64,000 nucleotides of DNA from an uncultured virus (IMG/VR IMGVR_UViG_3300046665_000306) (lineage: Duplodnaviria > Heunggongvirae > Uroviricota > Caudoviricetes). The position numbers and the translations under genes were made by a program. Within the stretch, counting starts at the first letter, position 1; each line of letters opens with the position of its first letter. Positions 26,987 to 62,912 of the stretch are shown piece by piece. A model generated the notes under the pieces. The model had not been told where the DNA came from. It saw only the letters and a program-made list of their open reading frames with translations, and made no database searches. The stretch lies in IMG/VR virus record IMGVR_UViG_3300046665_000306, positions 1 to 64,000 of that record, one strand, 5' to 3'.

Positions 26987-27138
26987 AAACTGTTTAGGTG
27001 GGGAATGCTGGTTATGCTGATGACCTTGTTCCTTCAAGGTCTAATGAGGAAAGAAGTAGTTTCGAAGGCGGTTGCGACTGGCAGAGAAACATAAGGATAC
27101 TTGGTTCGATTCCCCTCAGTTCCCTTCCTAAACAGTTT
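26987..27138 (+). ncRNA. unknown structured RNA with pseudoknot and T-loop-like motif
   Basis: 12-bp closing stem AAACTGTTTAGG/CCTAAACAGTTT; GACCTTG/CAAGGTC; GGTTCGATTCC. Confidence 0.65.
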
Positions 27139-27251
27139 GCAGGGACCGGTTTATGGAGAATGGCGTATCCAGCCTTATGATAAAGGTTCCGGCTTCTTTG
27201 AGGTTGTTATCTCAGGGAACGAAGATGGTTTGATTCCATCCTGCAAGTCCA
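27136..27251 (+). ncRNA. tRNA-like RNA with expanded D-domain and long anticodon-position arm
   Basis: TTTGCAG/CTGCAAG-T-CCA; T arm GATGG-TTTGATT-CCATC. Confidence 0.7.
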
Positions 27252-61386: not shown

Positions 61387-61974
61387 TTAAATTTTGTCCC
61401 AAACAGCGATAACCGCTTCGATGTAGCTATTATCTATCACAAACGTTTCACGAGGTAAATGATAAAACCTTACATCATGGAGAATCTTACAAATTTCGTC
61501 ACGGTATGCGGCATGGAGCAGAGCGACAAGTCTTCCACCCTCTGCAAGCTGAGACGCGGCATGACTGACATGCGTGACGCAATTACGATGGGGTGGATTC
61601 ATAACGACTCGGTCGAACAGATTGTCAAACTTTTGACATAGGAAATTGGTGTTCAAACATTCCACCGATGGATGTGAATCTATCAAATCAGCAAACATCT
61701 TCTTATTAAGTTCTATCGCCGTGATGTAGCGAGCGTGAACCTCAAGAGCTTCCACGATAGCACCAATTCCGGCACTAGGTTCAAGCACTCTGTCATGAAT
61801 TGTGATATCCGCAAGCGCGGCCATATCGGCGGCGAGCCACGACGGCGTCATGGTCGCAAGCAATTTGGTCCGGGGTGATGGGCTCGAACCACCGACACCT
61901 GTAGTTTCGTCCCTTATCCCCTTCAAATCATCTCCAACACTACTAGGGCCGGTTCTTGAGTTAATTACGCTCAT
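61387..61974 (-). CDS. class I SAM-dependent (amino-type) methyltransferase; ORF begins inside tRNA-like RNA
   Basis: VLEPSAGIGAI, AIELN, FDRVVMNPPH; alternative start ATG 61851 has no SD. Confidence 0.8.
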   Translation of the reverse strand: MSVINSRTGPSSVGDDLKGIRDETTGVGGSSPSPRTKLLATMTPSWLAADMAALADITIHDRVLEPSAGIGAIVEALEVHARYITAIELNKKMFADLIDSHPSVECLNTNFLCQKFDNLFDRVVMNPPHRNCVTHVSHAASQLAEGGRLVALLHAAYRDEICKILHDVRFYHLPRETFVIDNSYIEAVIAVWDKI

Positions 61975-62089
61975 TACTACATTCCTTTCATATCATTGAT
62001 TCATTTAAGGTTCAATTCATTCCTGTCGGTGATCAAGCCGGTCGAAATGAATCAGGCTAACAGTGCTCTACCAACTGAGCTAACCCCAG
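61866..62089 (-). ncRNA. tRNA-scaffolded RNA 1 with 152-nt insert replacing anticodon loop
   Basis: CTGGGGT/ACCCCGG-A-CCA; D arm GCTC-AGTTGGTA-GAGC; T arm GGTGG-TTCGAGC-CCATC. Confidence 0.85.
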
Positions 62090-62129
62090 AAATCTTCTTC
62101 AACCGTGGTTGAGGAAGCTTTATGTAATT

Positions 62130-62377
62130 TGGTCCAAGAGAATGGATTCGAACCACCAACCCCACGTTTTCTACCAATCCTTTTCAATTCCATTGTCGCG
62201 GTACTAAGTCTCTTTCATGAGTTGATCTGACTCACTACTTAATCCTTTTCAACGGCAATGTCCTATCCAATTCCATCTAATGCTGTAACACGATTTGTCA
62301 CATCGTTGCACTAAATAAGGCCGTGGTGCTCTACCTGCTACCTTTTGACACAAGGCATACTTTGGAGCTACCCTTGG
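62130..62377 (-). ncRNA. tRNA-scaffolded RNA 2 with D-loop hairpin and 155-nt insert replacing anticodon loop
   Basis: CCAAGGG/CTCTTGG-A-CCA; GCTC/GAGC; CCACG/CGTGG; T arm GGTGG-TTCGAAT-CCATT. Confidence 0.85.
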
Positions 62378-62412
62378 TTGAAACAAAAAGACTTTCGTCC
62401 TCTTGTTATTCC

Positions 62413-62441
62413 TATGTAAGACATTCGTTTCGTTTTGTCAA
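62413..62441 (-). promoter_or_regulatory. promoter of the tRNA-like RNA pair
   Basis: TTGACA-17-TACATA followed by a GAAA-tetraloop leader hairpin. Confidence 0.65.
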
Positions 62442-62525
62442 ACAGTTTTTTCAGTCTCTTCGAAATTAATTTTTATAACTTCTTCAAACCTGTGAAGACT
62501 TGGTCAAAAATTTCTTGTTCGGTCA

Positions 62526-62912
62526 TTAGATATATTTCTCCACCTTAACGTAGTGTTCTTTCGCCGTCTCAATGAGACGTTGCTTCATATCTGCTGGACT
62601 TTTGGCAAAATCGTGAGCCCGCTGTAACTCGCGTAGGAACCAAATCAGGTTCTCAGAAAAATTATCCATAAAGTATCTCACGCCAGTAACAGCCATACTT
62701 TCAAATTCTTCCTTGTAATCCGCATCTGGCAAGATATGCCCTGCGGCGCAGCGGCAATCATTAGCACCGCGATACTTGCACTGAATATAACTTGGATCAA
62801 TATCCCACATCACACCTACCTGCTCAGGCACGACAGACTTGATAAAACCCTGCTTTTCAAGGGCGCTAAACACGACGTGAAAAAGTTCTTGCTCATTCGA
62901 AAATTGTGTCAT
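62526..62912 (-). CDS. phage protein, C.YR..RC.AG.(I/L)PD family (paralog of next)
   Basis: CKYRG..CRCAAGHILPD..LQRAHD. Confidence 0.75.
   Translation of the reverse strand: MTQFSNEQELFHVVFSALEKQGFIKSVVPEQVGVMWDIDPSYIQCKYRGANDCRCAAGHILPDADYKEEFESMAVTGVRYFMDNFSENLIWFLRELQRAHDFAKSPADMKQRLIETAKEHYVKVEKYI

What the first reader, a model, noticed from the sequence alone, without database searches (positions are those of the whole stretch)
61866..62377. Tandem paralogous giant tRNA-scaffolded RNAs with ~150-nt structured inserts in place of the anticodon loop
Seen in the sequence: two minus-strand units (61866-62089, 62130-62377) behind one promoter. Each has a 7-bp acceptor stem, discriminator A, encoded CCA, GCTC/GAGC D stem, anticodon stem and canonical T arm. 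The anticodon loop is replaced by 152 nt (61905-62056) and 155 nt (62167-62321). Both inserts fold by eye into two long hairpins joined by purine-rich linkers and share TGAAA(A)GGA..AGTA(A/G)TGAG..AACTCA. Established knowledge: bacterial tRNA introns are group I, about 200 nt or longer. I find no P7 core here and no excision that restores a normal YUNNNRN loop. tmRNA has no D stem and needs G3-U70; YrlA Y RNAs are circularly permuted. Inference: a distinct phage ncRNA class using the tRNA body for processing, stability or ribosome/EF-Tu delivery of a cargo domain.
Basis: partly seen in the sequence, partly recalled or inferred. Interest (0 to 1): 0.92.

Follow-up and report, generated by a model that had tools for sequence, protein, structure and literature searches.

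The report
Paired tRNA-bodied structured phage RNAs
A soil phage carries two neighbouring genes for RNAs that keep a complete tRNA body but replace the anticodon loop with a conserved, elaborately folded 155-base domain, so they look like natural "tRNA-scaffolded" RNAs of unknown job rather than decoding tRNAs.

Summary
Units A (62130-62377) and B (61866-62089), minus strand, each have a 7-bp acceptor stem, A73, encoded CCA, D stem, T arm and anticodon stem. About 155 nt sit where the anticodon loop should be. ARAGORN (default) and Rfam miss both units.

I found the same A+B pair in only two other viral contigs, at about 90% and 73% identity. Five pattern scans of viral contigs, and one each of metagenome and genome contigs, gave no further members.

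All six units fit one fold:
- a three-way junction;
- a variable hairpin, H1;
- a rod running P3, GAA/AGUA, P4, AGUA/GAA, H2, with the sequence signature of two sarcin-ricin-type motifs;
- 9-10-nt H2 loops that carry palindromes.

Substitutions keep the pairing. Of 25 pair positions that differ between the window and its 90% relative, 21 stay standard pairs, 4 through double changes.

No excision restores a normal anticodon loop, and nothing matches group I intron, tmRNA, YrlA or 5S models.

Best reading (0.6): stable, non-decoding, tRNA-bodied RNAs in which the tRNA part gives processing and stability and the insert is the working module. It may dimerise or act as a decoy.

The closest precedent is T4 RNA C and RNA D, a tandem pair whose function is still unknown. 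No expression data exist for this locus.

The parts
62436..62441 (-). -35-like box TTGACA upstream of unit A
   Evidence: Invariant in the window, G001 and G005. Read.
62413..62418 (-). -10-like box TACATA, 17 nt after the -35 box
   Evidence: Read. It is TAGATA in G001 and TATATT in G005. The consensus scan does not list it.
62130..62377 (-). Unit A, 248 nt: tRNA body plus a D-loop hairpin plus a 155-nt insert, ending ACCA
   Evidence: Orthologues at L022:1501-1750 (90%) and L149:1494-1740 (73%).
62339..62357 (-). Unit A extra hairpin inside the D loop (6 bp)
   Evidence: 2 of 6 pairs change on both sides between the window and G005.
62167..62321 (-). Unit A insert, between the two strands of the anticodon stem
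62275..62316 (-). Unit A hairpin H1 (9-bp base, variable apex)
   Evidence: Across the five units compared, 4 of 9 base pairs change on both sides. The apex is replaced in a natural variant yet still folds as a hairpin.
62191..62260 (-). Unit A rod: P3, GAA/AGUA, P4, AGUA/GAA, H2
   Evidence: P3 has 2 double changes between the window and G001.
62222..62230 (-). Unit A H2 loop (9 nt) holding GAUC
62141..62157 (-). Unit A T arm
   Evidence: The variant U237C turns G-U into G-C.
62094..62117 (.). 10-bp hairpin in the spacer between units A and B
   Evidence: In G001 a like hairpin lies upstream of unit A instead.
61866..62089 (-). Unit B, 224 nt: tRNA body plus a 155-nt insert, ending ACCA
   Evidence: Orthologues at L022:1906-2129 (89%) and L027:132-356.
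61904..62058 (-). Unit B insert
62015..62052 (-). Unit B hairpin H1, with UGAUCA in its 8-nt loop
61925..62002 (-). Unit B rod: P3a, P3, GAA/AGUA, P4, AGUA/GAA, H2
   Evidence: The variants U154C and G150A keep the P3 pairs.
61961..61969 (-). Unit B H2 loop (9 nt) holding the palindrome UAAUUA
61877..61893 (-). Unit B T arm
61387..61851 (-). Small SAM methyltransferase gene, 14 nt after unit B and in the same place in all three phages. It is a neighbour; I do not claim it is part of the RNA.

Best explanation
Units A and B are genes for two paralogous, stable, non-decoding RNAs. Each keeps the whole upper part of a tRNA: acceptor stem, A73, CCA, T arm and D elbow. From the anticodon stem each carries a 155-nt folded domain instead of an anticodon loop.

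Proposed working:
1. Host RNA polymerase starts at the conserved TTGACA promoter and makes one precursor. (Inferred.)
2. The tRNA body is recognised by RNase P and by the enzymes that trim and maintain the 3' end, giving exact ends and protection from decay. (Inferred from the intact tRNA features and from the engineered 'tRNA scaffold', which works this way.)
3. The insert stays in the mature RNA and is the working part. (Inferred: no cut-out gives a usable anticodon loop, and unit A also has a conserved hairpin in its D loop.)

The insert folds into a three-way junction. This fold is supported by substitution patterns, not by experiment. It has:
- a short helix, CCU/AGG;
- a variable hairpin, H1;
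- a rod of fixed length in which two GAA/AGUA modules flank an 8-position helix and a 5-bp hairpin, H2. By sequence these modules look like sarcin-ricin (bulged-G) motifs.

The H2 loop carries a self-complementary word, so the RNAs probably pair loop to loop as dimers, A with A, B with B, or A with B. (Inferred, and noticed only after looking.)

The likeliest job is to display this module on a tRNA-shaped handle in the struggle over tRNA and translation between phage and host. It could be a decoy or sponge for a host factor that grips tRNAs, or a platform for a phage enzyme.

Rough odds:
- insert retained in a stable mature RNA: 0.6-0.65;
- loop-loop pairing real: about 0.35;
- decoy role in particular: about 0.2.
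For: Shown by tools:

(1) The tRNA body is intact in 6 of 6 units.
- 122 of 126 helix cells are standard pairs.
- 5 of 7 acceptor pairs and 3 of 5 anticodon-stem pairs change on both sides.
- C1-G72, A73 and CCA are present in all six.
- The four ordinary tRNAs of this phage also encode CCA.

(2) The insert is under selection for structure.
- 219 of 241 cells are paired, against 36-44% when the partner is slid.
- Double changes occur in H1 (4 of 9 pairs), P4 (2 of 8), P3 (2 of 5, between two phages only 10% apart), H2 (1 of 5) and the D-loop hairpin (2 of 6).
- Between the window and G001, 25 pair positions differ. 21 are standard pairs in both, 4 of them by double change. 3 are standard in only one. 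1 is standard in neither.
- On the gap-poor core alignment the covariation score is 0.318 against 0.160 +/- 0.042 in shuffles, with 0 of 500 shuffles as high. Paired cells are 71.8% against 30-44% when slid.
- In a metagenome variant, three further stem substitutions keep or improve pairing. The H1 apex is rewritten (10 substitutions, 6 indels) but still folds as a hairpin.

(3) GAA/AGUA words: 23 of 24 are kept. The distance from AGUA to RGGAU is exactly 49 nt in 5 of 5 units tested. The sixth unit is one nt longer.

(4) Both paralogues are kept in all three phages, with an invariant TTGACA upstream.

(5) H2 loops hold 6-nt palindromes in 3 of 4 independent lineages: UAAUUA, UAGCUA, UAGCUA. 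The fourth has GAUC. The chance of a 6-mer palindrome in a 9-nt loop is 0.066. UAAUUA and UAGCUA differ at the two central letters and remain palindromes.

(6) There is no second copy of the insert elsewhere in the genome, so it is not a repeated mobile element.

(7) Precedents:
- The engineered tRNA scaffold keeps the acceptor, T and D arms and puts the cargo at the anticodon stem-loop (PMC3753655, passages).
- T4 RNA C and RNA D.
- Phage RNAs ROOL and GOLLD lie near tRNA islands and assemble through kissing loops (PMC12286853, passages).
Against: - There are no expression data at all, so the mature size is unknown. Only DNA runs hold the locus.
- Single-sequence folding energies are not better than shuffles: z = -0.55 and -1.15.
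- The fold was drawn by eye from the same six sequences that were then counted, so paired percentages lean towards it.
- The six units come from only three related phages, so the changes are few events.
- RNAalifold on the raw MAFFT alignment did not recover even the cloverleaf.
- P4 has only 62.5% standard pairs. Its centre is always non-standard except in one unit.
- The CCU/AGG helix shows only one-sided change.
- One GAA is CAA in unit B of G005.
- The sarcin-ricin reading rests on sequence words recalled from memory, not on a 3D test.
- Palindromes were noticed after the fact. Unit A of the window has only a 4-mer. The two UAGCUA loops of G005 may share descent rather than being independent.
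- The decoy role has no direct evidence. The phage's RNA ligases and polynucleotide kinase are common in large phages.
Confidence: 0.6

Rival explanations
1. Intron-bearing tRNA genes. The 155-nt insert is a structured intron of an unknown kind. It would be removed either by its own chemistry or by a cut followed by the phage's own healing and sealing enzymes, leaving decoding tRNAs.
For: - The insert sits exactly at the anticodon-loop position, where bacterial tRNA introns lie.
- ARAGORN in intron mode calls unit B tRNA-Phe(GAA) with a 131-nt intron.
- The D arm and the GUGUC variable loop of unit B look Phe-like to me (recalled comparison).
- The phage encodes an Rnl1-type ligase, two Rnl2-type RNA ligases, a PNKP phosphatase domain and a P-loop kinase.
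- A structured intron would also covary.
Against: - The ARAGORN solution needs a weak stem with G-A and G-U pairs and a 21-nt variable region. It is found for unit B only. Unit A is called only at a lowered threshold, and with a different acceptor stem.
- In no unit does joining any x nt of the 5' flank to 7-x nt of the 3' flank give U at position 33 (read).
- There is no match to the group I intron model at E <= 10.
- Unit A has a second conserved insertion, in the D loop.
- The stem continues past the anticodon stem in B units (A-U/G-C, and U-A/G-C/C-G in G005; read by eye).
Confidence: 0.12
2. A processing or control element for the downstream methyltransferase mRNA. Unit B is a tRNA-like punctuation mark whose 3' cleavage creates the 5' end of the methyltransferase message, or a partner RNA of that enzyme. 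Its own 'function' is in cis.
For: - Unit B lies directly upstream of the same 154-aa methyltransferase gene in all three phages.
- The spacer is 14 nt in both the window and G005, with no Shine-Dalgarno word before the ATG.
- The enzyme's best matches, all far below threshold, include Erm/KsgA rRNA adenine methyltransferases.
Against: - Unit A has no such gene directly after it. In G005 a different ORF separates A and B.
- A terminator-like hairpin sits between unit B and the gene in G001.
- A simple cleavage signal would not need a conserved 155-nt domain.
- PHROGs names the enzyme a DNA methyltransferase.
Confidence: 0.1
3. A ribosome-directed mimic. The tRNA body brings to the ribosome, or to translation GTPases, a domain that imitates rRNA: the sarcin-ricin loop or a 5S-like three-way junction. 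This would tune or protect translation.
For: - There are two AGUA/GAA modules.
- The order of helices matches that of 5S rRNA: closing helix, hairpin, then a longer hairpin with a loop-E-type module (my reading; the 5S layout is recalled).
- SD-like AAGGA lies 7-8 nt before an AUG, GUG or UUG in all six units.
Against: - There is no match to 5S or any rRNA model at E <= 10.
- The rod is about twice as long as the 5S arm.
- AGUA/GAA modules occur in many unrelated RNAs (established knowledge).
- No anticodon means no known route to aminoacylation by most synthetases.
- There are no binding data.
Confidence: 0.08
4. Decaying tRNA pseudogenes that once took up a piece of foreign DNA.
For: - tRNA finders do not call them.
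- Folding energies are ordinary.
- This region in the related phages holds other T-arm-like scraps.
Against: - Both copies are kept in three phages down to 73% identity, with all tRNA stems intact and compensatory changes in both body and insert.
- The promoter box is conserved.
- Lengths are fixed to the nucleotide.
Confidence: 0.04

Closest known systems
Phage T4 RNA C (species 1) and RNA D (species 2)
   Same: - Two stable non-tRNA RNAs encoded side by side on one strand of a large lytic phage (AF158101 70908-71171).
- RNA C carries a canonical T arm, CCGGGUUCGAAUCCCGG, with paired ends.
- Their roles are still unknown (PMC3014915 and PMC9697503, passages).
   Different: - There is no sequence likeness: blastn of the locus against the phage collection that holds T4 gave no match.
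- The T4 RNAs are 139 and 119 nt and lie at the end of the tRNA cluster. In the MFE fold and by eye, RNA C's enlargement lies 5' of an anticodon-arm-like hairpin, not at the anticodon. RNA D shows no cloverleaf in its fold.
- Here the full cloverleaf is kept, the insert replaces the anticodon loop, and the locus lies about 32 kb from the phage's tRNA genes.
Engineered 'tRNA scaffold' for recombinant RNA (Ponchon and Dardel; PMC3753655)
   Same: The same design: acceptor stem, T and D arms are kept, and the cargo is inserted at the anticodon stem-loop. Cellular enzymes then process the chimera and spare it from decay. Cargo of up to about 250 nt is tolerated (passages).
   Different: That is a laboratory construct. 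This would be a natural counterpart, with a conserved cargo and a second insertion in the D loop of unit A. Processing of the natural RNAs has not been shown.
Bacterial tRNA genes with group I introns
   Same: A long structured insertion at the anticodon loop of an otherwise normal tRNA gene.
   Different: There is no match to the group I model. The insert is 155 nt, against roughly 200 nt or more (recalled). No splice restores a normal loop.
tmRNA and YrlA (Y RNA-like) tRNA-like domains
   Same: Non-decoding RNAs that borrow tRNA acceptor and T-arm shape joined to another domain.
   Different: - ARAGORN finds no tmRNA.
- The YrlA model scores 18.8 bits against a gathering score of 69. That match bridges the T arm of unit A and the D arm of unit B.
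- The order of parts here is that of a normal tRNA, not permuted.
ROOL, GOLLD and other self-assembling phage RNAs (PMC12286853; bioRxiv 10.64898/2026.07.01.735769)
   Same: Phage-borne structured RNAs of unknown role, tied to tRNA loci, that assemble by loop-loop pairing. Short RNAs under 200 nt can also assemble (abstract and passages).
   Different: Those RNAs are not built inside a tRNA, and there is no Rfam match here. Assembly of the present RNAs is only inferred from palindromic loops.

Membership tests
Decoding tRNA (Rfam RF00005) | 7-bp acceptor stem, discriminator base and 3' CCA | tested here: met
   6 of 6 units. 5 of 7 pairs change on both sides.
Decoding tRNA (Rfam RF00005) | D stem and a T arm with a UUCGA-type loop | tested here: met
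   There is one G-G mismatch in the D stem of unit A of G005.
Decoding tRNA (Rfam RF00005) | 7-nt anticodon loop with U33 on a 5-bp stem | tested here: not met
   155 nt lie between the stem strands. No cut-out gives U33. ARAGORN in default mode makes no call.
Decoding tRNA (Rfam RF00005) | Score at or above the family's gathering score | tested here: not met
   No tRNA match at the locus, either at gathering score or at E <= 10.
Group I intron in a tRNA gene | Conserved catalytic core recognised by the Rfam model | tested here: not met
   No match at E <= 10 in 61600-62700.
Group I intron in a tRNA gene | Excision restores a normal anticodon stem-loop | tested here: not met
   Read. The ARAGORN intron-mode solution needs a weak stem and a 21-nt variable region.
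Group I intron in a tRNA gene | Self-splicing | not testable with these tools
   Needs in vitro transcription and a GTP-dependent splicing assay.
tmRNA | tRNA-like ends plus a tag reading frame, found by ARAGORN or Rfam | tested here: not met
   No tmRNA call and no Rfam match.
YrlA (Y RNA-like, RF02553) | Score at or above the gathering score of 69 bits | tested here: not met
   18.8 bits, E = 0.57. The match spans two different units.
T4 RNA C / RNA D | Sequence homology to the T4 RNAs | tested here: not met
   No blastn match in the phage collection, which holds T4.
T4 RNA C / RNA D | Tandem stable RNAs with tRNA-like parts, made with the phage's tRNAs | tested here: inconclusive
   The tandem pair and the T arm are shared. 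The locus here is not in the tRNA cluster, and stability has not been tested.
Sarcin-ricin (bulged-G) motif | AGUA on one strand facing GAA on the other, between two helices (signature recalled from memory) | tested here: met
   23 of 24 words are kept, each flanked by covarying helices.
Sarcin-ricin (bulged-G) motif | S-turn geometry with the bulged G | not testable with these tools
   Needs probing or a solved structure.
5S rRNA | Match to the Rfam 5S model | tested here: not met
   No match at E <= 10. Only the order of helices is alike.

The most novel reading that the evidence does not exclude
These are natural tRNA-scaffolded assembly RNAs. The tRNA body gives maturation and long life. 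The palindromic H2 loops, and in some units the H1 loops, join the rods into A/B dimers or larger arrays. These arrays display paired sarcin-ricin-loop look-alikes and tRNA elbows as bait for host enzymes that attack the translation machinery during infection. This would be a new way for a phage to build an RNA decoy, and a natural forerunner of the laboratory tRNA scaffold.
Probability: 0.18. Interest if true: 0.85.

Novelty: new variant of a known kind. Interest (0 to 1): 0.62.

Why it matters
Phages have been known for fifty years to make odd, stable, tRNA-related RNAs, such as T4 RNA C and RNA D. Their purpose is still unknown.

This locus offers a cleaner case:
- a complete tRNA body;
- a single well-defined insertion point;
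- a conserved cargo with recognisable modules;
- two paralogues kept side by side.

If the RNAs are made as predicted, they would show that nature uses the same trick as the engineered tRNA scaffold.

They would also give a tractable system of 224 and 248 nt, with a clear set of mutants, for two questions. What do tRNA-shaped non-coding RNAs do in infection? Do small phage RNAs assemble through kissing loops?

The family is rare: three genomes in the collections I searched. Its general importance is therefore uncertain.

Tried and rejected
**Expression**
- No RNA holder is listed for the locus.
- The four runs laid are DNA contigs from rhizosphere metagenomes.
- One contig of run X6 joins 61896 to 62064, with only 20 letters on its shorter side at 80% likeness. 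I read it as an ordinary tRNA of another organism, not as a spliced form.

**Search for more members**
- Viral contigs: five pattern scans. They gave 20, 89, 10, 2 and 5 stretches. nhmmer or blastn kept only G001 and G005. Three new hits are a coding repeat.
- Metagenome contigs: 20 stretches, none related.
- Genome contigs: 5 stretches, none related.
- Neighbour-protein searches found only the same two contigs.

**Alignment-based fold**
- RNAalifold on the raw alignment gave a wrong fold that mixed the D and T arms.

**Ideas dropped**
- Hammerhead. CUGAU..GAAAC is seen in unit B only, and GAAAC is GAAGC in G005.
- Box C/D guide. There is no RUGAUGA.
- A CCUU/AAGG tertiary pair in unit B. It is broken in G001 and in the X6 variant, U83A.
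- A shared A-with-B kissing pair. Complementary loops exist in each phage, but between different loops.

**Coding reading of unit B**
- An open frame runs from the RUG in H2 into the methyltransferase gene in all three phages.
- Between the window and G005, the insert part shows no third-position excess (9, 12, 8), and the peptide is poorly kept.
- The 30-nt in-frame insertion in G001 supplies a new ATG.
- I reject the coding reading, but I cannot explain why the frame stays open.

Full report
**What is there.**

The minus strand of 61866-62377 holds two units. I number each from its 5' end.

Unit B (224 nt) reads as follows:
- acceptor stem 1-7/214-220;
- D stem GCUC/GAGC with a normal AGUUGGUA loop;
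- anticodon stem 27-31/187-191;
- variable loop GUGUC;
- T arm GGUGG-UUCGAGC-CCAUC;
- A73 and CCA.

Unit A (248 nt) has the same parts, plus a 19-nt hairpin inside the D loop.

In both units about 155 nt lie between the two strands of the anticodon stem.

ARAGORN in default mode finds only the four ordinary tRNAs of the window, at 26.9-29.6 kb. Rfam at gathering scores finds the same four.

With permissive settings the locus gives four weak chance-level matches. The best is YrlA at 18.8 bits against a gathering score of 69. That match bridges the T arm of unit A and the D arm of unit B.

**Where the window comes from.**

The window is the first 64 kb of a 120,498-bp viral contig, about 66% complete, with 44% G+C.

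Its large terminase is about 41% identical to those of large phages of Alphaproteobacteria and of a Microcystis phage.

The genome encodes:
- rIIA and rIIB;
- NAD salvage enzymes;
- many HNH endonucleases;
- an Rnl1-type and two Rnl2-type RNA ligases;
- a PNKP phosphatase domain;
- a P-loop kinase.

The units lie in a run of small minus-strand genes. They sit between a gene of unknown function and a 154-aa SAM methyltransferase.

**Relatives.**

blastn against 50,697 phage records gave nothing. The own genome holds no second copy.

Pattern scans and neighbour-protein searches found the element in two other viral contigs only.
- G001 is 119,575 bp. Its units A and B are 90% and 89% identical to those of the window.
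- G005 is 184,940 bp, has terminal repeats and is rated complete. Unit B lies at its start and unit A at its end, which are adjacent across the repeat. Unit A is 73% identical.

Further scans added no member:
- viral contigs;
- metagenome contigs;
- genome contigs;
- each checked by nhmmer, blastn or reading.

So I found the family in only three related phages, and all three keep both paralogues. A and B are far more different from each other than orthologues are. The duplication therefore predates the split of these phages.

**The fold.**

I derived a fold by eye from the six units, wrote it down as coordinates, and then counted pairs.

Beyond the cloverleaf, the insert forms these parts:
- **Px**, a 3-bp helix between CCU, just after the anticodon stem, and AGG near the 3' end of the insert.
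- **H1**, a hairpin with a 9-bp base and a variable apex.
- **A rod.** It consists of helix P3 (plus P3a in B units), a GAA/AGUA module, helix P4 of eight positions whose centre is non-standard, a second AGUA/GAA module in mirror orientation, and hairpin H2 (5 bp, loop of 9-10 nt).

Counts:
- In the tRNA-body helices, 122 of 126 cells are standard pairs.
- In the insert helices, 219 of 241 are standard pairs.
- Sliding the 3' partner by 1-3 columns gives 38-50% and 36-44%.

Pairs that change on both sides:

| Helix | Double changes |
|---|---|
| Acceptor stem | 5 of 7 |
| Anticodon stem | 3 of 5 |
| H1 base | 4 of 9 |
| P4 | 2 of 8 |
| H2 | 1 of 5 |
| D-loop hairpin | 2 of 6 |
| P3 (window vs G001 only) | 2 of 5 |

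The closest pair gives the cleanest test, because alignment is not in question. Between the window and G001, 25 pair positions differ.
- 21 are standard pairs in both, 4 of them through double changes.
- 3 are standard in one only. Two of these are the outermost position of P4.
- 1 is standard in neither.

On a nearly gap-free alignment of the core, the pair-counting tool gives a covariation score of 0.318. Shuffles give 0.160 +/- 0.042, and 0 of 500 reach the observed score. Paired cells are 71.8%, against 30-44% when slid.

The words GAA and AGUA are kept in 23 of 24 places. The distance from the first AGUA to RGGAU is exactly 49 nt in the five units tested. It is one nt more in the sixth.

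A metagenome variant, run X6, adds three stem changes that keep or improve pairing. Its H1 apex in unit A is rewritten by 10 substitutions and 6 indels, yet still folds as a long hairpin.

**Caveats on the fold.**
- The fold was drawn from the same sequences that I counted.
- Three phages give few independent events.
- Single-sequence energies are ordinary, with z = -0.55 and -1.15.
- RNAalifold on the raw alignment failed to recover the fold.
- P4 is only 62.5% standard pairs.
- Px varies on one side only.

**What the modules look like.**

AGUA on one strand facing GAA on the other, between two helices, is the sequence signature of the sarcin-ricin (bulged-G, loop E) motif. I recall this from memory. 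It is a lead, and no 3D test was possible.

The second module, with H2 on top, has the layout of the sarcin-ricin loop itself, except that a 5-bp hairpin replaces the tetraloop.

The H2 loops read as follows:

| Unit | H2 loop |
|---|---|
| A, window and G001 | UC-AGAUCA-A |
| A, G005 | AUA-UAGCUA-G |
| B, window | CG-UAAUUA-A |
| B, G001 | AG-UAAUUA-A |
| B, G005 | UG-UAGCUA-G |

Three of the four independent lineages hold a 6-nt palindrome, where the chance per 9-nt loop is 0.066. UAAUUA and UAGCUA differ at the two central letters and both remain palindromes.

H1 loops hold UGAUCA in unit B of the window and G001. In unit A of G005 the same word includes one closing base.

A 9-nt loop with a central self-complementary hexamer is the format of retroviral dimer-initiation loops (recalled). 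This suggests loop-loop dimers. I noticed it after looking, so I treat it as an inference.

**Intron or retained domain.**

If the insert were removed to give a decoding tRNA, the flanks would have to supply a 7-nt loop with U at its second place. No split of the flanks does so in any unit.

In B units the stem runs on past the anticodon stem. The extra pairs are A-U and G-C in the window, and U-A, G-C and C-G in G005 (read by eye).

ARAGORN in intron mode calls unit B tRNA-Phe(GAA) with a 131-nt intron. It does this by using a stem with G-A and G-U pairs and a 21-nt variable region. Unit A is called only at a lowered threshold, and with a different acceptor stem.

There is no group I match.

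Unit A also carries a second conserved insertion, in its D loop.

I therefore favour a mature RNA that keeps the insert. Only RNA data can settle this, and none exist.

**Likely working.**

- *Seen in the sequence:* a conserved promoter-like box; a full tRNA upper half with encoded CCA, as in the phage's ordinary tRNAs; a conserved cargo.
- *Inferred:* RNase P and 3' trimming give exact ends and stability, as in the engineered tRNA scaffold, which keeps the same parts and puts cargo at the same place (PMC3753655, passages).
- *Inferred:* the rod is displayed and may dimerise.
- *Speculative:* a role as a decoy or platform in the contest over tRNAs and translation.

**Rivals.**
- A new kind of intron (0.12).
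- A cis element tied to the methyltransferase gene (0.10). The gene follows unit B in all three phages. The spacer is 14 nt in two of them, and there is no Shine-Dalgarno word.
- A ribosome-directed mimic (0.08).
- Pseudogenes (0.04).

**Comparison with what is known.**

The nearest precedent is T4 RNA C and RNA D. They are a tandem pair of stable RNAs next to the tRNA genes. RNA C has a canonical T arm. Their roles are unknown (PMC3014915 and PMC9697503, passages).

There is no sequence likeness to them, and the architecture differs.

ROOL and GOLLD are phage RNAs near tRNA islands that assemble through kissing loops (PMC12286853, passages). Short RNAs can also assemble (bioRxiv 10.64898/2026.07.01.735769, abstract and passages).

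Three of my four literature searches that ran looked for, and turned up no description of, a natural tRNA whose anticodon loop is replaced by such a domain; the fourth was for the T4 RNAs. The library lacks most subscription journals, so this is not proof of absence.

**Verdict.**

This is a real and conserved pair of tRNA-bodied structured RNAs. It is a new variant of the old and unexplained kind 'tRNA-related stable phage RNAs'. It is rare, has no expression data, and has a testable fold and a testable assembly hypothesis.

Noticed in passing
window 26987-27138 (+): A structured element closed by a 12-bp stem, between tRNA-Leu and tRNA-Lys. Its folding z-score is -3.5, with 0 of 200 shuffles as good. 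There is no Rfam match. G001 holds a 99% identical copy.
   Followed up: partly
window 27137-27250 (+): A cloverleaf-like element that tRNA finders do not call. It has a 7-bp acceptor-like stem, a T arm GAUGG-UUUGAUU-CCAUC, an enlarged D region, a long anticodon-like hairpin and no CCA. It suggests that this phage holds further tRNA-derived RNAs.
   Followed up: partly
L022:1752-1900 (G001) and L149:1745-1800 (G005): Extra T-arm-like minihelices lie beside the units in the related phages. One gives a weak mascRNA-like match of 19 bits. The window has only a plain hairpin there, at 62094-62117.
   Followed up: no
L013:31-244 (identical in L011 and L019): An unrelated viral contig, met by chance, holds another tRNA-shaped element with about 150 nt in place of the anticodon loop, ending ACCA. 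A second T-arm/acceptor-like piece follows it. There is no Rfam match. Such elements may be more common in phages than this one family suggests.
   Followed up: partly
window 61851-61974 (-), L022, L027: In all three phages a frame stays open from the AUG or GUG in H2 of unit B into the methyltransferase gene. There is no coding-type substitution pattern in the insert part. G001 lacks the usual ATG and has a 30-nt in-frame insertion that carries a new one. This is unexplained.
   Followed up: partly
window 61387-61851 (-): The 154-aa methyltransferase after unit B has an NPPH motif. Its only matches, all far below threshold, are to Erm/KsgA rRNA adenine methyltransferases and to TaqI. PHROGs names it a DNA methyltransferase. 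Whether it acts on the neighbouring RNA is open.
   Followed up: partly
window 62285-62312 (unit A, apex of H1): In one metagenome run the apex of H1 differs by 10 substitutions and 6 indels, while the rest of the contig piece is unchanged over 62251-62343. This may be a local hot spot of change, or an exchange of a module.
   Followed up: partly
units A and B, all six copies: An SD-like AAGGA (AAGAA in one unit) lies 7-8 nt before an AUG, GUG or UUG at the start of H2. In A units the frame stops after 4-6 codons. This may be coincidence with the GAA/AGUA module.
   Followed up: no
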